In this document: piece after piece, positions 1,514-7,228 of the stretch
Numbering within the stretch: the stretch's first letter is position 1
Layout of the letters: every line of letters begins with the position of its first letter
Origin: a virus
Lineage: Duplodnaviria > Heunggongvirae > Uroviricota > Caudoviricetes
Direction: 5' to 3' (one strand)
Length of the DNA: 8,174 bases
IMG/VR virus record: IMGVR_UViG_2681813263_000010
The notes under the pieces: model-generated
The model's database searches: none
Told to the model about the DNA's origin: nothing
Seen by the model: only the letters and a program-made list of their open reading frames with translations
Position numbers and translations under genes: made by a program

Positions 1514-1898
1514 NNNNNNNNNNNNNNNNNNNNNNNNNNNNNNNNNNNNNNNNNNNNNNNNNNNNNNNNNNNNNNNNNNNNNNNNNNNNNNNNNNNNNNN
1601 NNNNNNNNNNNNNNNNNNNNNNNNNNNNNNNNNNNNNNNNNNNNNNNNNNNNNNNNNNNNNNNNNNNNNNNNNNNNNNNNNNNNNNNNNNNNNNNNNNNN
1701 NNNNNNNNNNNNNNNNNNNNNNNNNNNNNNNNNNNNNNNNNNNNNNNNNNNNNNNNNNNNNNNNNNNNNNNNNNNNNNNNNNNNNNNNNNNNNNNNNNNN
1801 NNNNNNNNNNNNNNNNNNNNNNNNNNNNNNNNNNNNNNNNNNNNNNNNNNNNNNNNNNNNNNNNNNNNNNNNNNNNNNNNNNNNNNNNNNNNNNNNNN

Positions 1899-3090: not shown

Positions 3091-3718
3091 NNNNNNNNNN
3101 NNNNNNNNNNNNNNNNNNNNNNNNNNNNNNNNNNNNNNNNNNNNNNNNNNNNNNNNNNNNNNNNNNNNNNNNNNNNNNNNNNNNNNNNNNNNNNNNNNNN
3201 NNNNNNNNNNNNNNNNNNNNNNNNNNNNNNNNNNNNNNNNNNNNNNNNNNNNNNNNNNNNNNNNNNNNNNNNNNNNNNNNNNNNNNNNNNNNNNNNNNNN
3301 NNNNNNNNNNNNNNNNNNNNNNNNNNNNNNNNNNNNNNNNNNNNNNNNNNNNNNNNNNNNNNNNNNNNNNNNNNNNNNNNNNNNNNNNNNNNNNNNNNNN
3401 NNNNNNNNNNNNNNNNNNNNNNNNNNNNNNNNNNNNNNNNNNNNNNNNNNNNNNNNNNNNNNNNNAACGTAATATTTTTTCTCCTGTAAGNNNNNNNNNN
3501 NNNNNNNNNNNNNNNNNNNNNNNNNNNNNNNNNNNNNNNNNNNNNNNNNNNNNNNNNNNNNNNNNNNNNNNNNNNNNNNNNNNNNNNNNNNNNNNNNNNN
3601 NNNNNNNNNNNNNNNNNNNNNNNNNNNNNNNNNNNNNNNNNNNNNNNNNNNNNNNNNNNNNAAAAGTAAATAGTGATGCTATTTCAAAGTGATTAGCAAT
3701 CTTATTAGAATTGGATGT

Positions 3719-4219
3719 ATGAAAAGAAAATCATTGTCAGACACCGACCTCAACGCCGCCAGAAGACTGAAAGAAATCTGGATGGCAAAGAAATCTCAGT
3801 TGGGATTGACTCAGGAACGTGCGGCGGAAATTATGGGGTTTTCAACACAAGGGGCGGTAAGTCACTACCTAAATGGTCAAACCCCACTAAACCTTGAGGC
3901 TGTTCTAAAGTTTGCTGGCTTACTGAAAGTTCCCCCTGAGTCAATCAGGCCAGACATGGTAGATTTGCTGCAAATTGCAAGGATGTATTGTCGAGAACCA
4001 CAGCAAGATAACATAGTCGCATTACCAGCAGACACAGAACAAACAGAGGATGAACTACCGTTTGCCGTAGAGCCGATGGAACGAGATTTAATCCATACGT
4101 TCAGAGCTTTTCCGAAAGAAGATCAAGAACACATGCTTCAGGAGATGAAAGATAAAAAAGAATCAATGGATCGTACGGTTGCGCGGTGGTTAGCTGCACA
4201 AAAAGGCCGTCGCGCCTAA
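3719..4219 (+). CDS. HTH (XRE/Cro-CI type) transcriptional regulator, PaaR-like regulator of the three-component TA operon; candidate immunity repressor
   Basis: ATG 3719 (MKRKSLSDTDLNAARRLKEIW...), 166 aa, stop TAA 4217-4219. HTH segment LTQERAAEIMGFSTQGAVSHYLNG. C-terminal motif DLIHTFRAFPKEDQEHMLQEM resembles the DicA C-terminal region as recalled. No peptidase S24 module. Track start GTG 3689 has no SD. Confidence 0.8.
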   Translation: MKRKSLSDTDLNAARRLKEIWMAKKSQLGLTQERAAEIMGFSTQGAVSHYLNGQTPLNLEAVLKFAGLLKVPPESIRPDMVDLLQIARMYCREPQQDNIVALPADTEQTEDELPFAVEPMERDLIHTFRAFPKEDQEHMLQEMKDKKESMDRTVARWLAAQKGRRA

Positions 4220-4238
4220 ATCAGAGGAGATATGTAAA

Positions 4239-4433
4239 ATGAGTACAGTCCTTTCCCCAATGGTTTCAGAATTTGAGACAGTTGAGCAAGAAAATAGTTA
4301 CAACGAATGGCTGCGGGCCAAAGTAGCAGCAAGCCTCGCGGATCCCCGCCCGGCGATTCCGCATGATGAGGTAATGGCGGAAATGGAACAAATTATTGCC
4401 CAAATTGCTGCTGCAACTCACAGAGGTGAATNN
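4239..4433 (+). CDS. paaA: PaaA-family antitoxin (64 aa; stop codon partly masked)
   Basis: SD GAGGA 4225-4229, ATG 4239. N-terminal 45 aa (..LSPMVSEFET.EQENSYNEWLRAKVA.SLADPRPAIPHDEV) matches the PaaA2 antitoxin of E. coli O157 paaR2-paaA2-parE2 as I recall it; the C-terminal 19 aa differ. In-frame codon 4431-4433 is tNN, consistent with a stop. Confidence 0.8.
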
Positions 4434-4469
4434 NNNNNNNNNNNNNNNNNNNNNNNNNNNNNNNNNNNN

Positions 4470-4587
4470 TTATGGCTACCATCTGCTCGTGATGATTTGC
4501 GCCAGATCGTAGCCTACATAGCTAAAGAAAATCCCGCGGCAGCACGCAGAATGAAAATTCGAATTGAAACATCCGTTTTGCCGCTCA
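4470..4587 (+). CDS. parE: ParE/RelE-superfamily toxin, N-terminal part visible (start in gap 4432-4469, 3' part in gap 4588-4730)
   Basis: LWLPSARDDLRQIVAYIAKENPAAARRMKIRIETSVLPL fits the ParE N-terminal helical hairpin pattern (..A..DL..I..YIA..NP.AA......L......LP). Immediately downstream of the PaaA-like antitoxin. Confidence 0.7.
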
Positions 4588-4730
4588 NNNNNNNNNNNNN
4601 NNNNNNNNNNNNNNNNNNNNNNNNNNNNNNNNNNNNNNNNNNNNNNNNNNNNNNNNNNNNNNNNNNNNNNNNNNNNNNNNNNNNNNNNNNNNNNNNNNNN
4701 NNNNNNNNNNNNNNNNNNNNNNNNNNNNNN

Positions 4731-4931
4731 GTATCCCTTTCCTGGTTGCTGACAGGAAAAGAAGATAGCAATAGAGAGACACTTGATGATGATGAGAAAG
4801 CCCTGCTTGATGTTTACAGAAATCTGCCACCTGTAGAACGCAGAAATATGCTTGCAGCTTTTCAAATGCGACTTCAAAAACTGACTGAATTTTATTCAGA
4901 ATACGTTGACCCAGCAACGCGTCAAAAATAA
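4731..4931 (+). CDS. DicA-like HTH repressor, C-terminal 66 codons (N-terminus masked, or a 3' remnant)
   Basis: VSLSWLLTGKEDSNRETLDDDEKALLDVYRNLPPVERRNMLAAFQMRLQKLTEFYSEYVDPATRQK, stop TAA 4929-4931. WLLTG is the typical end of a Cro/CI-type HTH domain; the following motif parallels DicA (..ELLELFNALPESEQDTQLAEM..) as recalled. Position upstream of ydfA-ydfB matches dicA in Qin. Confidence 0.5.
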   Translation, partial: VSLSWLLTGKEDSNRETLDDDEKALLDVYRNLPPVERRNMLAAFQMRLQKLTEFYSEYVDPATRQK

Positions 4932-4953
4932 TTCTTTATTTTACAAAACAATA

Positions 4954-4975
4954 CCGCCGAAAGGCGGTTTTTTTT
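4954..4975 (+). terminator. rho-independent terminator
   Basis: Stem CCGCC (4954-4958), loop GAAA, stem GGCGG (4963-4967), then T8 (4968-4975), 23 bp after the DicA-like stop. An A-rich tract upstream could allow weak activity on the other strand. Confidence 0.8.
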
Positions 4976-4980
4976 GCCTT

Positions 4981-5025
4981 TTATGAATTCATAATGTTGA
5001 CATATGTTCATTTAAAGAGAACAAT
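4981..5025 (+). promoter_or_regulatory. 14-bp perfect palindrome (operator candidate) abutting a sigma70-like promoter for the ydfA-dicB operon
   Basis: TTATGAATTCATAA (4981-4994) is perfectly self-complementary. TTGACA at 4997-5002; 17 bp downstream AACAAT (5020-5025) is a weak -10. About 75 bp upstream of the ydfA ATG. Confidence 0.4.
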
Positions 5026-5098
5026 GTATTCCATCAAAGCACAACGGTGCGACAGGTTTTAGTTCCGCCACCCGGCGTTAAGGGGAAATGAGGTCAGC

Positions 5099-5254
5099 AT
5101 GGATACTATCGATCTTGGCAACAACGAATCTCTGGTATGTGGCGTGTTCCCCAACCAGGATGGAACGTTCACCGCCATGACTTATACCAAAAGCAAAACG
5201 TTTAAAACCGAAGCTGGCGCGCGTCGCTGGCTGGAAAGAAACTCAGGTGAGTGA
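5099..5254 (+). CDS. ydfA: YdfA-like small prophage protein (51 aa)
   Basis: SD GAGGT 5090-5094, ATG 5099, stop TGA 5252-5254. MDTIDLGNNESLVCGVFPNQDGTFTAMTYTKSKTFKTEAGARRWLERNSGE, recognised as Qin-prophage YdfA-like. Not in the ORF track (short). Confidence 0.85.
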   Translation: MDTIDLGNNESLVCGVFPNQDGTFTAMTYTKSKTFKTEAGARRWLERNSGE

Positions 5255-5255
5255 T

Positions 5256-5384
5256 ATGGATTTCGACACAATCATGGAAAAGGCTTACGAAGAATACTTC
5301 GAAGGCCTTGCCGAAGGCGAAGAAGCTCTCAGCTTCAGCGAATTTAAACAGGCGCTTTCCAGTTCGGCAAAATCTAACGGCTGA
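5256..5384 (+). CDS. ydfB: YdfB-like small prophage protein (42 aa)
   Basis: ATG 5256, one nt after the ydfA stop; SD GGTGA 5246-5250; stop TGA 5382-5384. MDFDTIMEKAYEEYFEGLAEGEEALSFSEFKQALSSSAKSNG. Confidence 0.85.
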   Translation: MDFDTIMEKAYEEYFEGLAEGEEALSFSEFKQALSSSAKSNG

Positions 5385-5412
5385 TAAGCGAAACAGCACG
5401 CGAGGAATCAGT

Positions 5413-5523
5413 ATGCAGAAACGAGAACCCGTCATCATCGCGCCAGACTATACCGATGATGAACTTTATGAGTGGATTTTGGCGGCATCAGTTTCATTGC
5501 TGGCTGATGTCCGCCCTTTTTAA
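5413..5523 (+). CDS. YdfC-like small ORF (36 aa); 3' end overlaps the DicF-like sRNA
   Basis: SD GAGGAA 5402-5407, ATG 5413, stop TAA 5521-5523. MQKREPVIIAPDYTDDELYEWILAASVSLLADVRPF; the N-terminus resembles YdfC as recalled. The ORF-track 5251..5523 entry is the same frame with a spurious upstream start overlapping ydfB. Confidence 0.5.
   Translation: MQKREPVIIAPDYTDDELYEWILAASVSLLADVRPF
5465..5521 (+). ncRNA. dicF: DicF-like small RNA (processed from the dicB-operon transcript) with 3' terminator hairpin
   Basis: tttatgagtggattttGGCGGcATCAGtttcattgctggCTGATgtCCGCCcttttt resembles K-12 DicF as recalled (UUUCUGGUGACGUUUGGCGGUAUCAGUUUUACUCCGUGACUGCUCUGCCGCCC). Stem GGCGG.ATCAG / CTGAT..CCGCC (5481-5515), U-run 5517-5521. 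Position after ydfC matches Qin. Confidence 0.6.
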
Positions 5524-5703
5524 AGTGAATTTTGTGATGCGGTGAATGCGGCTCAGCGCACGCGGAACAGTTAAAACAGTAAGGAAAATCCCTTATTCCG
5601 GCGTTAATTATTAACTGGTTAACGTCACCTGGAGGCACCAGGCACCGCATCAACAAAGTTCACTTCGGTGATGAAAGGAAAGAGAAAATGTTGAATGTAG
5701 CTA

Positions 5704-5732
5704 TTGAAAACCAGAACGGGTGGAATTATAGT
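5704..5732 (+). promoter_or_regulatory. candidate sigma70 promoter: TTGAAA-N17-TATAGT
   Basis: TTGAAA 5704-5709, 17-bp spacer, TATAGT 5727-5732. Lies inside the stop-free frame upstream of the Rha ATG, arguing that this stretch is leader rather than coding. Confidence 0.4.
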
Positions 5733-5794
5733 GCATCTGCACCTCATAAAACGGGGGCCGGGCGTGGAAACCCGAACGTTACTCGAGCGCATAG

Positions 5795-5815
5795 CCGCGC
5801 TGAAGCGGTTTTTTT
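5795..5815 (+). terminator. weak terminator-like hairpin plus U-run (possible attenuator or sRNA 3' end)
   Basis: CCGC (5795-5798), loop GCTGAA, GCGG (5805-5808), followed by T7 (5809-5815). Only a 4-bp stem; an alternative GCGC/GCGC pairing (5787-5790 with 5797-5800) is mutually exclusive with it. Confidence 0.35.
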
Positions 5816-5984
5816 ATGCGTAATGCACAGCTCCATTCAAATTATGGTGGGATGTGCAGGGCAGTCGCAAGACTGGCCGGGTTCTCGAGTGACCGGTATT
5901 TCCACCCCTGTACGTCTCACCACCCTTATGGTCGTGGAAAACCTCGGTGGTGAGTTAATTAACTTATCACTCGAGGATGCCATC

Positions 5985-6542
5985 ATGGCTACTATCCCTG
6001 CCCTTTCTCACCCTGACGTAACCATCGAAAATGGTCGCGCTGTCACTACGTCTATTGCGATCGCAGAGTTCTTTGGCAAGCGTCACGACAATGTGTTACG
6101 TGCCATCGCAAATACTGAATGCTCACCTGAATTTAACGCCCTCAATTTTGAGGACGTCACCTACACTGACGCCAAAGGCGAAAAACGCCCGATGTACCAA
6201 ATCACCAAAAACGGCTTCGTTTTCCTGGTGATGGGATTCACTGGCAAAAAAGCCGCTGCATTCAAAGAAGCCTACATTGCTGAGTTCGACCGCATGGAGG
6301 CCGAACTGCGCCAGAATAACACCCCACCCACTGACAAAATAATTCCAGGCGATGGCCGCACCCTGGTTGTTCACTTCGACGAACGCGGCAACATCAGATT
6401 CACCGAAACCGTTCCTGATGGCGCACGGGTCTGTACCATGGAGACTTTCCGGTTTTATCTGGAAGAACAGGGATGGACTCTTGTTAACCGGGGCGCAATT
6501 AAAAATATGACTGTAGAGCAATTACTCAAAATTCATTGTTGA
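5985..6542 (+). CDS. Rha-family phage regulatory protein (185 aa)
   Basis: SD GAGGA 5972-5976, ATG 5985, stop TGA 6540-6542. N-terminal domain ..ENGRAVTTSIAIAEFFGKRHDNVLRAI...DAKGEKRPMYQITKNGFVFLVMGFTGKKAAAFKEAYIAEFDRME matches the Rha (pRha) signature. Track ORF 5688..6542 is the same frame with an upstream extension judged non-coding. Confidence 0.8.
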   Translation: MATIPALSHPDVTIENGRAVTTSIAIAEFFGKRHDNVLRAIANTECSPEFNALNFEDVTYTDAKGEKRPMYQITKNGFVFLVMGFTGKKAAAFKEAYIAEFDRMEAELRQNNTPPTDKIIPGDGRTLVVHFDERGNIRFTETVPDGARVCTMETFRFYLEEQGWTLVNRGAIKNMTVEQLLKIHC

Positions 6543-6552
6543 GGACGCGATA

Positions 6553-6741
6553 ATGGAAACGTTATTACCAAACGTTAATACGACTGAAGGTTGTTTTGAA
6601 ATTGGTGTCACTATCAGTAACACGGTATTTACTGAAGATGCCATTAACAAGAGAAAACACGAACGGGAGCTATTAAATAAAATATGCATTGTTTCAATGC
6701 TGGCTCGTTTGCGTCTGATGCAAAAAGGATGCTGGCGATGA
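6553..6741 (+). CDS. dicB: DicB cell-division inhibitor (62 aa)
   Basis: SD GAGGA 6541-6545, ATG 6553, stop TGA 6739-6741. METLLPNVNTTEGCFEIGVTISNTVFTEDAINKRKHERELLNKICIVSMLARLRLMQKGCWR, near-identical in pattern to K-12 DicB as recalled. Confidence 0.9.
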   Translation: METLLPNVNTTEGCFEIGVTISNTVFTEDAINKRKHERELLNKICIVSMLARLRLMQKGCWR

Positions 6742-6929
6742 ATACAGCATTTGCACTCGTTCTGACCGTTATTCTTAATACGGGCGAACCAGCTGAACTG
6801 GTTACCGGAGTATACAACTCCATGAAAGAATGCGTGGCTGCTGCAGCTGAACAGAAAATTCCCGGTAACTGTTATCCGGTTGATAAAATCATTCACCAGG
6901 ATAATAAAGAAGTCCCGGCAGGTCTTTAA
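6738..6929 (+). CDS. ydfD: YdfD-like small protein (63 aa; family reported as lysis-associated)
   Basis: ATG 6738-6740 overlaps the dicB stop (ATGA); SD AAGGA 6724-6728; stop TAA 6927-6929. MNTAFALVLTVILNTGEPAELVTGVYNSMKECVAAAAEQKIPGNCYPVDKIIHQDNKEVPAGL. Hydrophobic N-terminal segment. Confidence 0.85.
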   Translation: MNTAFALVLTVILNTGEPAELVTGVYNSMKECVAAAAEQKIPGNCYPVDKIIHQDNKEVPAGL

Positions 6930-7228
6930 AGCANNNNNNNNNNNNNNNNNNNNNNNNNNNNNNNNNNNNNNNNNNNNNNNNNNNNNNNNNNNNNNNNNNN
7001 NNNNNNNNNNNNNNNNNNNNNNNNNNNNNNNNNNNNNNNNNNNNNNNNNNNNNNNNNNNNNNNNNNNNNNNNNNNNNNNNNNNNNNNNNNNNNNNNNNNN
7101 NNNNNNNNNNNNNNNNNNNNNNNNNNNNNNNNNNNNNNNNNNNNNNNNNNNNNNNNNNNNNNNNNNNNNNNNNNNNNNNNNNNNNNNNNNNNNNNNNNNN
7201 NNNNNNNNNNNNNNNNNNNNNNNNNNNN

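What the first reader, a model, noticed from the sequence alone, without database searches (positions are those of the whole stretch)
3719..4931. Two HTH regulators flanking the TA pair share a DicA-type C-terminal motif
The regulator at 3719-4219 ends with DLIHTFRAFPKEDQEHMLQEM and the fragment at 4731-4931 carries ALLDVYRNLPPVERRNMLAAFQM. Both parallel the DicA C-terminal motif (ELLELFNALPESEQDTQLAEM, as recalled), pattern LL..F..LP...Q..L.EM. This suggests the TA-operon regulator and the DicA-like repressor are paralogues, and raises the possibility of heterodimerisation or operator cross-talk between immunity control and dicB-operon control.
Basis: partly seen in the sequence, partly recalled or inferred. 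Interest (0 to 1): 0.4.

Follow-up and report, generated by a model that had tools for sequence, protein, structure and literature searches.

The report
Shared tail of short prophage repressors
The two sequences really do share a DicA-like C-terminal tail, a portable helical module found on many short prophage repressors, but they are not whole-gene paralogues. The second one is only a gene end, and it is placed next to the toxin-antitoxin pair across a gap in a draft assembly.

Summary
The similarity is far above chance. An HMM built from seven third-party tails scores 32.8 and 29.8 bits, while none of 5000 shuffles per sequence exceeded 13.1. Tail-only profile comparison gives P=7e-6.

It is a module of about 50 residues: a short helix, an invariant proline turn, then a long amphipathic helix. 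It replaces the LexA/S24 domain in short lambdoid repressors and is attached to interchangeable helix-turn-helix domains.

The gene at 3719-4219 is a PaaR2-like regulator with a lambda-CI-type N-domain, and it heads a paaR-paaA-parE module. The stretch 4731-4931 is the last third of a different repressor gene with a 186-CI-type N-domain. It carries its own terminator, promoter and operator.

The window is a complete 8174-bp draft contig. Its N runs are scaffold gaps, and the parE-to-fragment joint lies in one of them. That joint was found nowhere else I searched.

The operators differ and the tails belong to different subclasses, so cross-talk is unsupported.

This is a modest, mostly ordinary result.

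The parts
3670..3682 (.). PaaR-type operator-like inverted repeat ATAGTGATGCTAT, upstream of the regulator. The rest of the divergent control region lies in the assembly gap 3491-3661.
   Evidence: This is the only exact match in the window. The same motif recurs twice downstream of parE in finished genomes: L005 6064-6076 and 6092-6104, and L001. Binding is inferred, not shown.
3719..4219 (+). PaaR2-like repressor gene (166 aa), first gene of a three-component paaR-paaA-parE module at the cI/dicA position.
   Evidence: Homologues start at MKRK. The exact protein occurs in many genomes with PaaA2 and ParE immediately downstream. It is 78% identical to the commonest E. coli homologue, P0009, which sits in the same arrangement. 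The role of PaaR2 is taken from PMC8630535.
3722..3988 (+). N-terminal DNA-binding domain, lambda CI N-domain type (residues 2-90).
   Evidence: phmmer against PDB: 1lmb/1rio lambda repressor, residues 2-81, E 3e-9. Pfam HTH_3 E 8e-9. AF2 predicts helices at 8-28, 32-39, 45-51, 59-69 and 78-90.
3995..4051 (+). Predicted flexible linker (residues 93-111).
   Evidence: AF2 pLDDT is below 50 for residues 93-111. Linker length and sequence vary among homologues.
4046..4216 (+). DicA-type C-terminal tail, PaaR subclass (residues 110-166): helix 119-129, proline turn, helix 133-165.
   Evidence: for homology; for predicted structure; for a gap-free 38-sequence alignment with an invariant Pro.
4239..4431 (+). 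paaA (PaaA2-type antitoxin). Its stop codon falls in gap 4432-4469.
   Evidence: The visible 64 codons are identical to L001 relB/PaaA2. Pfam PaaA2 E 3e-23. PDB 3zbe PaaA2 E 1e-23.
4432..4469 (.). Assembly gap (38 N). The homologous stretch in finished genomes is 13 nt.
   Evidence: The N run is present in the public record itself. Length comparison.
4470..4587 (+). 5' part of parE (ParE2-type toxin), codons about 5-43 of 96.
   Evidence: Matches the L001/L005 toxin. Pfam ParE_toxin E 2e-17 and PDB 5cw7 E 7e-37 were obtained for the full-length homologue.
4588..4730 (.). Assembly gap (143 N) that hides the joint between parE and the repressor fragment.
   Evidence: The N run is in the public record. 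A complete parE needs a further 161 nt. The five other gaps are all over-estimated by 6-71 nt.
4731..4931 (+). 3' third (residues 62-127 plus stop) of a different short repressor gene (L002/L020 type, 127 aa): the last N-domain helix, the linker and a complete tail. There is no HTH.
   Evidence: 100% identical to the 3' end of the full-length genes in L002, L020 and L022. The parent carries Pfam Phage_CI_repr. AF2 of the parent predicts N-domain helices 9-69 and tail helices 81-92 and 95-119.
4761..4928 (+). DicA-type tail, L002 subclass.
4953..4975 (+). Intrinsic-terminator-like hairpin with a T run, after the repressor gene end.
   Evidence: Conserved in L002/L020.
4983..4992 (.). Role unknown. 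It has no counterpart in the divergent control region of the parent prophage.
   Evidence: Matches with up to 2 mismatches are not enriched over shuffles.
4997..5025 (+). Sigma-70-like promoter in front of ydfA (TTGACA, 17 nt, AACAAT). It is the PL/dicBp equivalent of the L002-type prophage.
   Evidence: The same cassette occurs inverted in the L002 divergent region (31 nt, 84% complementary).
5006..5022 (.). L002-type operator-like inverted repeat GTTCATTTAAAGAGAAC, in the promoter spacer. No cognate DNA-binding domain is visible in the window.
   Evidence: This is the only site in the window. Its counterpart is GTTCACTTAAAAAGAAC at L002 3739-3755. Binding is inferred.
5099..5254 (+). ydfA (DUF1391), first gene of the dicB-type operon, which continues with ydfB, a truncated ydfC, isrK/C4, rha and dicB.

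Best explanation
The shared motif marks a homologous, portable C-terminal module of about 50 residues. It consists of a short helix, an invariant proline turn, and a long amphipathic helix with a basic end.

In 'short' lambdoid prophage repressors this module takes the place of the LexA/S24 self-cleaving domain of lambda CI. A flexible linker joins it to interchangeable Cro/CI-type HTH domains.

Inferred function: the tail mediates self-association of the repressor. It would form dimers and, for PaaR2, higher oligomers that can bridge the operators at the divergent promoter and at the distal PL/dicB-type promoter. Because the tail cannot be cleaved through RecA, such repressors have to be switched off by antirepressors.

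In this contig, 3719-4219 is a PaaR2-like repressor (lambda-CI-type N-domain plus PaaR-subclass tail) that heads a paaR-paaA-parE module.

The stretch 4731-4931 is the 3' third of another repressor gene (186-CI-type N-domain plus L002-subclass tail), followed by its own terminator, promoter and operator in front of ydfA.

The two are joined only across a scaffold gap. The fragment is therefore either a recombination relic or, slightly more likely (about 0.55), part of a second co-resident prophage mis-joined by the assembler. As seen, it is not a functional regulator.
For: Shown by tool results:
- Tail homology.
- The same predicted helix-Pro-helix architecture in both proteins, after a low-confidence linker.
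- A gap-free alignment of 38 tails with an invariant Pro and a conserved hydrophobic pattern.
- A tail profile searched against 1.84 billion representatives gives only 71 hits at E<=1e-3. Forty of them are 115-200 aa, and in 39 of those the match ends within 20 residues of the C-terminus. Thirty-three of the 40 carry HTH_3. S24 peptidase is not among the 17 Pfam families returned for the 40 proteins.
- Module shuffling: N-domain and tail identities are discordant. The PaaR-subclass tail plus paaA-parE sits behind three different N-domains. Eight repressor types sit in front of the same ydfA; all seven without S24 carry the tail, and the one with S24 lacks it.
- The fragment is identical to the end of full-length genes.
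- The N runs are in the public record.
- The joint was not found in 5426 complete E. coli genomes, in the genomes read that carry the identical regulator, in phage records, or in nine IMG/VR contigs with this parE.

From the literature:
- PaaR2 occupies the cI position, represses PR- and PL-like promoters and octamerises (PMC8630535).
- Gifsy-type short repressors are dimers that are inactivated by antirepressors, and DicA and RacR belong to that group (PMC3121763).
- Rem is an antirepressor of DicA (PMC10448788 / its preprint).

The best structural match of the L002-type model over its full length is SinR, in its complex with SinI (1b0n; 106 columns, E 1e-3).
Against: No experiment or multimer model here shows that the tail, rather than the N-domain or linker, carries oligomerisation. 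The monomer AF2 models say nothing about interfaces.

The SinR match is weak (TM 0.42-0.50).

Gifsy repressors themselves were not aligned here.

I did not verify that P0009 is the published O157:H7 PaaR2.

The artefact-versus-recombinant question cannot be settled, because the joint is in the gap. The contig also lacks an IS1 copy that Shigella sonnei 53G carries between rha and dicB, so this strain's prophage genuinely differs from the finished references.
Confidence: 0.72

Rival explanations
1. One reading: the two genes are paralogous regulators flanking the TA pair. Their shared tail lets them hetero-oligomerise or cross-regulate each other's operators, which would couple immunity control to dicB-operon control.
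For: The tails are homologous. Cross-acting control between co-resident prophages is documented for antirepressors (PMC3121763). If the scaffold is an artefact, both full-length repressors may coexist in this genome.
Against: The N-domains belong to different families, and direct BLASTP finds no alignment. The operators are unrelated sequences. The tails are only 13-26% identical, with subclass-specific invariant residues. The fragment has no HTH and no evident start codon or ribosome-binding site in the visible sequence. Its adjacency to the TA pair is a scaffold link.
Confidence: 0.07
2. The similarity is chance or convergence: a generic acidic amphipathic helix such as many regulators carry at their C-terminus.
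For: Raw identity in the 21-residue register is only 5/21 between the two window sequences. Direct BLASTP finds nothing. No Pfam family covers the tail.
Against: The third-party HMM scores 30-33 bits against a maximum of 13.1 in 5000 composition-matched shuffles. hhalign gives P 7e-6. NCBIfam gives E 7e-8 and PHROG 5736 gives E 2e-7 on the tail alone. The alignment is gap-free with an invariant Pro across 38 sequences. A scan of 1.84 billion proteins returns almost only HTH-plus-tail proteins.
Confidence: 0.03
3. The tail is mainly the docking surface for antirepressors (Gifsy/Rem-type, or the Rha/AnrP-like protein encoded at 5688-6542), and oligomerisation resides elsewhere.
For: Short repressors of this class are inactivated by small antirepressors that bind them as A2B2 complexes. 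Rem derepresses dicBp. An isrK-C4-rha antirepressor-type module lies in the same operon. In SinR, the analogous helical hook is the surface that SinI binds (established knowledge; 1b0n is the top fold match).
Against: This model does not exclude the best explanation. Nothing here maps the antirepressor contact. Rem shows no similarity to the tail (score -2.2 bits), so a SinI-like mimicry mechanism is not indicated for Rem.
Confidence: 0.25
4. The DicA-type C-terminus is a RovA/SlyA-like winged-helix DNA-binding region, as proposed for DicA by Yun et al. 2012.
For: The published pairwise alignment shows 29% identity over 55 residues (PMC3441716).
Against: Neither DicA nor its tail hits Pfam MarR, even at E<=10. 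AF2 predicts two helices around a proline turn, with no wing or beta hairpin. One of the 40 tail-bearing proteins has a marginal MarR hit (E 7.6e-4); I did not check where in the protein it falls.
Confidence: 0.03
5. The parE-to-fragment joint is real. An illegitimate or modular recombination would have replaced the 3' end of parE, the PaaR-type OL region and ydfA with the end of an L002/L020-type repressor gene and its PL region. That would leave the dicB-type operon under an operator whose repressor is not encoded in cis.
For: The contig is continuous from 4731 to 6933. It switches back to the S. sonnei type inside a stretch of about 230 bp (roughly 5700-5930) that is near-identical in both parents, as homologous recombination would produce. 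Lambdoid immunity regions are mosaics. The strain lacks an IS1 copy present in the reference.
Against: The joint lies in an N gap. It was not found in any other genome or contig I searched. The gap estimate (143) is shorter than the 161 nt needed to finish parE, while all other gaps are over-estimates. A mis-scaffold through the shared ydfA leader predicts an apparent gap of about 71 nt plus the usual over-estimate, which fits 143. The identical stretch is also exactly what makes assemblers switch paths.
Confidence: 0.45

Closest known systems
PaaR2 of the paaR2-paaA2-parE2 module, cryptic prophage CP-933P, E. coli O157:H7 (Hallez 2010; Jurenas 2021, PMC8630535)
   Same: A 166-aa regulator at the cI position, divergent from ydaS-ydaT. 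It is followed by a PaaA2-type antitoxin and a ParE2-type toxin (Pfam PaaA2 3e-23; PDB 3zbe and 5cw7 hits). It is 78% identical to the common E. coli homologue in the same arrangement. Operator-like repeats lie upstream. A TAGAAT -10-like hexamer lies 8 nt before the ATG and there is no Shine-Dalgarno sequence, which is compatible with the published leaderless start (read; inference).
   Different: The protein differs by about 22% from that homologue. In this contig the PL/OL region that PaaR2 is reported to repress is not present after parE. An L002-type promoter stands there instead, across a gap. Oligomeric state is untested.
DicA, repressor of the Qin prophage dicB operon (E. coli K-12)
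   Same: The same tail module and the same genomic logic: a repressor, a terminator, then a repressed promoter in front of ydfABC...dicB.
   Different: DicA has a P22 C2-type N-domain. Neither window protein does. Both score far below the NCBIfam DicA cut-off (32 and 20-39 bits against 101). The tails are of different subclasses (26-29% identity).
Gifsy-type short repressors GfoR/GftR and their antirepressors (Lemire 2011, PMC3121763)
   Same: Short (about 136 aa) with no Ala-Gly/S24 cleavage apparatus. They are dimeric and controlled by antirepressors. DicA and RacR are listed as members.
   Different: No direct alignment with the Gifsy proteins was made here. No antirepressor for either window protein has been identified.
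SinR/SinI of Bacillus subtilis
   Same: An Xre-type HTH domain followed by a two-helix C-terminal hook used for self-association. It is the best full-length fold match of the L002-type model (1b0n).
   Different: The match is weak (E 1e-3, TM 0.42-0.50), and no sequence similarity was detected. No SinI-like tail-only partner is known. Tail-only ORFs in the databases look like gene fragments.
Lambda CI
   Same: The regulator's N-domain is homologous to the CI N-domain, including the N-terminal arm region. It sits at the same locus and has the same role.
   Different: No S24/LexA-like C-terminal domain was detected. The tail is unrelated to it.

Membership tests
DicA subfamily (NCBIfam NF007257 / PRK09706) | Whole-protein score at or above the curated cut-off of 101 bits | tested here: not met
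   The regulator scores 32.4 bits, the full-length L002-type parent 39.0 bits and the fragment 20.4 bits.
DicA subfamily (NCBIfam NF007257 / PRK09706) | P22 C2-like N-terminal HTH domain | tested here: not met
   DicA matches P22 C2 at E 8e-20. The regulator matches the lambda CI N-domain instead. The L002-type parent matches Pfam Phage_CI_repr.
DicA subfamily (NCBIfam NF007257 / PRK09706) | C-terminal helix-Pro-helix tail (model positions about 70-130) | tested here: met
PaaR regulators of three-component paaR-paaA-parE modules | First gene of an operon with a PaaA2-type antitoxin and a ParE2-type toxin directly downstream | tested here: met
   The window holds paaA (4239-4431) and the parE 5' part (4470-4587). 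Full-length equivalents were tested by Pfam and PDB. The 3' end of parE is not visible because it falls in the gap.
PaaR regulators of three-component paaR-paaA-parE modules | Located at the cI position, divergent from ydaS-ydaT | tested here: met
   The window is colinear with L001, L003 and L005, where ydaS and ydaT are annotated. The window shows the ydaT 3' part up to 3090 and a 25-nt ydaS island at 3466-3490.
PaaR regulators of three-component paaR-paaA-parE modules | Octamerisation, and repression of both PR-like and PL-like promoters | not testable with these tools
   Literature only. In this contig no PaaR-type operator is present near the ydfA promoter.
Lambda CI / LexA-type self-cleaving repressors | C-terminal Peptidase_S24 domain (which carries the self-cleavage activity) | tested here: not met
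   Neither protein has an S24 hit, and S24 is not among the Pfam families returned for 40 tail-bearing proteins. L023, at the same locus in another prophage, does have S24 and lacks the tail.
Gifsy-type short, antirepressor-controlled repressors (Lemire 2011) | Short length (about 125-170 aa) without the cleavage apparatus | tested here: met
   The proteins are 166 aa and 127 aa with no S24 domain.
Gifsy-type short, antirepressor-controlled repressors (Lemire 2011) | Inactivation by a cognate antirepressor | not testable with these tools
   Only context is available: an isrK/C4/rha antirepressor-type module at 5688-6542.
Gifsy-type short, antirepressor-controlled repressors (Lemire 2011) | Sequence homology to GfoR/GftR | not tested
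   No Gifsy repressor sequences were retrieved. The link rests on the paper's statement that DicA is a member.
SinR-like repressors | HTH domain plus a C-terminal two-helix oligomerisation hook | tested here: inconclusive
   Foldseek's top hit is 1b0n_A over 106 columns, but with E 1e-3 and TM 0.42-0.50. The query is a monomer model.
MarR/RovA/SlyA winged-helix (proposed for the DicA C-terminus, Yun 2012) | Match to the MarR-type winged-helix domain | tested here: not met
   DicA and its tail give no Pfam MarR hit at E<=10. The predicted structure is two helices.

The most novel reading that the evidence does not exclude
The DicA-type tails may define compatibility classes among co-resident prophage repressors. 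Tail-only remnants might then not be inert. If the 4731-4931 fragment is really joined to the paaR-paaA-parE operon, it could be transcribed with it, since no terminator is visible before 4953. If it were also translated, or fused to a truncated ParE, it could act like SinI. It would form non-productive hetero-oligomers with the full-length L002-type repressor of a sister prophage. That would tune expression of that prophage's dicB-type operon.
Probability: 0.04. Interest if true: 0.6.

Novelty: new member of a known kind. Interest (0 to 1): 0.3.

Why it matters
The result links PaaR2, the regulator of a well-studied three-component toxin-antitoxin module, to DicA and the Gifsy-type short repressors through a specific C-terminal module. 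The PaaR2 and DicA papers I read do not point out this module. One of them instead attributes the DicA C-terminus to RovA/SlyA homology, which is not supported here.

This gives a concrete target for mapping PaaR2 octamerisation and the contacts between DicA and its antirepressor. It also explains how immunity specificity (the N-domain plus its operators) can be swapped while the tail and the downstream TA cargo stay together.

There is a practical lesson as well. The apparent 'two regulators flanking a TA pair' architecture depends on a scaffold gap and should not be built upon.

Tried and rejected
1. Masks. I first treated the N runs as deliberate masks and tried to infer frames and the completeness of parE from their lengths. 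I dropped this when five of five runs proved 6-71 nt longer than the homologous sequence, and when the runs turned out to be in the public record.

2. Search for the hybrid joint elsewhere. None of these searches found the joint:
- megablast against 5426 complete E. coli genomes and against phage records
- a gapped pattern and a parE anchor in genome contigs
- the parE anchor in metagenome contigs
- the parE anchor in IMG/VR, which gave 9 contigs, none with the fragment
- exact-protein look-ups of the regulator, YdfA and the truncated YdfC
- a look-up of the Rha protein, which is not on record
Only the DicB look-up found the source contig itself.

3. Direct BLASTP of the two window proteins gave no hit. 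Profile methods were needed.

4. Single-linkage clustering of N-domains at E<1e-3 was too coarse, because most HTH_3-type domains chain together. I replaced it with pairwise N-domain and tail identities.

5. I tested whether the antirepressor Rem mimics the tail, as SinI mimics the SinR hook. It does not.

6. No Pfam family covers the tail. No solved structure covers it either.

7. The 4983-4992 palindrome is not repeated in the parent prophage's control region, so I do not regard it as the main operator.
Full report
**What the window is.** The 8174 bases are a lambdoid (Qin/Rac/CP-933P-like) prophage immunity region.
- The minus strand carries replication genes and ydaT/ydaS.
- The plus strand carries a 166-aa HTH regulator (3719-4219), a PaaA2-type antitoxin (from 4239), the first part of a ParE toxin (4470-4587) and a 201-nt gene end (4731-4931).
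- After that come a terminator, a promoter, ydfA, ydfB, a truncated ydfC, an isrK/C4/rha module and dicB.

An exact-protein look-up of the window's DicB returned a public record of exactly 8174 bp: contig CXDG01000164.1 of draft assembly GCA_001252135.1. Its sequence equals the window, including every N run.

So the N runs are scaffold gaps, not masks. Five of them can be measured against genomes that are 99-100% identical on both flanks. All five are too long, by 6, 25, 61, 63 and 71 nt. Reading frames and distances across the gaps therefore mean nothing.

**Checking the observation.** K-12 DicA contains the recalled ELLELFNALPESEQDTQLAEM exactly.

Raw identity in that register is low: 5/21 between the two window sequences, and 8/21 and 7/21 to DicA. 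Direct BLASTP of the regulator against the fragment's full-length parent finds nothing.

Profile methods settle the question.
- The NCBIfam DicA model aligns only the regulator's C-terminus (residues 106-162 to model positions 74-130, E 7e-8). It aligns the fragment at E 3.6e-4.
- BLASTP of the regulator against DicA aligns tail to tail (E 2e-6).
- An HMM built from seven tails of other repressors, with neither window family included, gives 32.8 and 29.8 bits. The best of 5000 composition-preserving shuffles of each sequence reached 13.1 bits.
- PHROG 5736 independently links the regulator, DicA and the L002-type protein through the same region.

**What the motif is.** The three proteins have different N-terminal domains.
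- The regulator's is the lambda CI N-domain (PDB 1lmb, residues 2-81, E 3e-9).
- DicA's is the P22 C2 N-domain (E 8e-20).
- The fragment's parent has Pfam Phage_CI_repr (E 1e-12).

AF2 models of the regulator and of the 127-aa parent both show the same plan: a helical N-domain, a poorly predicted linker, a short helix (119-129 and 81-92 respectively), a proline turn, and a long helix (133-165 and 95-119).

A gap-free alignment of 38 tails gives the consensus L...Q..LL..F..LP..EQ...L.....KK, with an invariant Pro and a regular hydrophobic pattern.

A profile of the tail was searched against 1.84 billion representative proteins. It returned only 71 hits at E<=1e-3.
- Forty of them are 115-200 aa long.
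- In 39 of those 40 the match ends within 20 residues of the C-terminus.
- Thirty-three of the 40 carry Pfam HTH_3.
- Peptidase_S24 is not among the 17 Pfam families returned for them.

The same ydfA gene is preceded in different prophages by eight different repressor types. All seven that lack S24 carry the tail, and the one with S24 lacks it. The tail also occurs in repressors of isolated temperate phages.

**Module shuffling.** N-domain and tail similarities are discordant.
- The regulator is 68% identical to P0025 in the N-domain but only 26% in the tail.
- It has no meaningful N-domain similarity to P0031 (27% over 45 aa, score 34) but is 76% identical in the tail.
- The L002-type tail (42-47% identity) occurs on P0160 and P0187. 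Their N-domain is the one that elsewhere carries the PaaR-type tail.

At least three tail subclasses are visible: PaaR, L002 and DicA types. The PaaR-subclass tail together with paaA-parE sits behind three unrelated N-domains: 166-aa, 132-aa and 123-aa proteins. The linker therefore looks like a recombination boundary.

'Paralogues' is thus true only of the tail.

**The regulator.** The regulator is a PaaR2-like protein.
- The exact sequence occurs in many genomes, always followed by PaaA2 and ParE. The names attached to it and to its partial forms say Shigella sonnei.
- It is 78% identical to the commonest E. coli homologue in the same arrangement.
- The TA proteins match PDB PaaA2 and ParE2.
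- The literature places PaaR2 at the cI position of CP-933P. It represses PR- and PL-like promoters and octamerises (PMC8630535).

I did not verify that P0009 is the published O157:H7 protein.

**The fragment.** Bases 4731-5100 are 100% identical to the end of full-length 127-129-aa repressor genes and their downstream region in several E. coli genomes.
- The visible part starts at residue 62. It therefore has only the last N-domain helix, the linker and the tail, and no recognition helix.
- The downstream promoter (TTGACA, 17 nt, AACAAT; 4997-5025) has GTTCATTTAAAGAGAAC in its spacer.
- That promoter-operator cassette is repeated, inverted, in the parent's divergent control region.
- The PaaR-type operator ATAGYGATGCTAT occurs in the window only at 3670-3682.
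- In finished genomes it is repeated after parE, in front of ydfA.

As scaffolded, the contig therefore pairs a PaaR-type repressor with a foreign PL-type promoter and operator.

**Is the juxtaposition real?** The joint lies in the 143-N gap.
- Completing parE alone needs 161 nt.
- The joint was not found in 5426 complete E. coli genomes, in the genomes read that carry the identical regulator, in phage records, in nine IMG/VR contigs with this parE, or in the genome and metagenome scans.
- The piece 4731-6933 is L020/L038-type up to about 5930 and S. sonnei-type from about 5700. The overlap is near-identical in both parents (0-3 mismatches per 100 nt).

This pattern fits either homologous recombination or an assembler switching paths between two co-resident prophages.

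If parE were wrongly linked to this piece through the shared ydfA leader, the expected apparent gap would be about 71 nt plus the usual over-estimate. That fits 143.

On the other hand, the strain lacks an IS1 copy that S. sonnei 53G has between rha and dicB. Its prophage therefore genuinely differs from the references.

I lean to an assembly artefact (about 0.55), but this cannot be decided here.

**Mechanism.**
- Shown: tail homology, the predicted two-helix architecture, the exclusive association with Cro/CI-type HTH domains, and the absence of any S24 hit in these proteins.
- From the literature: short repressors of this class are dimers that antirepressors inactivate (PMC3121763). Rem does this to DicA. 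PaaR2 octamerises.
- Inferred: the tail is the self-association element that replaces the CI C-terminal domain. It allows cooperative and long-range operator binding without RecA-dependent cleavage.

The best full-length fold match is SinR in its SinI complex, where a comparable two-helix hook does exactly this. The match is weak, however.

The published proposal that the DicA C-terminus resembles RovA/SlyA (PMC3441716) finds no support.

**Verdict.** It is wrong in the other respects: the genes are not whole-gene paralogues, the second element is not a regulator as seen, and the flanking architecture is unverified. Operator cross-talk is unlikely, and hetero-oligomerisation is untested and disfavoured.

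The components are known kinds. The explicit link between the PaaR2 and DicA tails and the evidence for shuffling are a modest addition.

Noticed in passing
window 1514-1898, 3091-3465, 3491-3661, 4432-4469, 4588-4730, 6934-7228: The N runs are scaffold gaps present in the public record (contig CXDG01000164.1, assembly GCA_001252135.1). Five of the six can be measured against finished genomes, and all five are over-estimated by 6-71 nt. ORFs that read through the gaps, such as the 628-aa and 230-aa ORFs in the ORF list, are artefacts.
   Followed up: yes
window 5739-5815 and 5840-5927, inside ORF 5688-6542: Rfam finds isrK (59.6 bits) and C4 antisense RNA (76.7 bits) at the 5' end of the Rha/Phage_ASH-type ORF. 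This is an isrK-C4-ant (AnrP-like) antirepressor-type module, and it sits where K-12 Qin has dicF. No DicF match reached the threshold.
   Followed up: partly
L025-L028, L024, L032-L035 (related loci): The PaaR-subclass tail together with paaA-parE is found behind three unrelated N-terminal domains (132-aa, 123-aa and 166-aa regulators). This suggests that the tail-coding end plus the TA cargo moves as one recombination unit, with breakpoints in the linker.
   Followed up: partly
L029-L031 (proteins P0013-P0023): These 244-255-aa repressors have a lambda-CI-type N-domain, a second complete HTH domain and then the PaaR-type tail. Where the neighbourhood was read (P0018, L029-L031), they are followed by HipA_2 and DUF3037 genes rather than paaA-parE.
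   Followed up: no
L039 1750-2414; L062 and L067 5936-6498: Other prophages carry different TA pairs in this region. L039 has HigB/HigA between the repressor and ydfA. L062 and L067 have PhdYeFM/ParE about 1.7 kb downstream of ydfA. The region looks like a hot spot for TA cargo, comparable to rexAB in lambda.
   Followed up: no
window 5413-5523: ydfC is truncated to 36 codons. The same short form occurs in several E. coli prophages with different repressors (L036-L045).
   Followed up: partly
window 91/92 and 6445-6454: Relative to S. sonnei finished genomes, the contig lacks 111 nt at position 91/92. It also lacks the IS1 copy that 53G carries between rha and dicB; about 10 bp at 6445-6454 aligns to both sides of that insertion site. 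Three other draft assemblies carry the same DicB on contigs of only 1.5-1.7 kb that begin about 60-145 nt upstream of dicB.
   Followed up: partly
proteins P0149, P0155, P0161, P0162, P0166, P0167, P0172, P0174, P0177: Public protein sets contain many 50-90-aa tail-only ORFs. Most are visibly frameshifted or truncated repressor genes. A few (P0161, P0162, P0172) could be free-standing tail proteins, which would be of interest as SinI-like antagonists.
   Followed up: no
L002 3737-3767 versus 4265-4295 (window 4995-5025): In the L002-type prophage the -35/operator/-10 cassette of the leftward promoter is repeated, inverted, as the rightward promoter in front of ydfA (31 nt, 84% complementary). 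This mirrors the identical PR/PL elements reported for CP-933P.
   Followed up: partly
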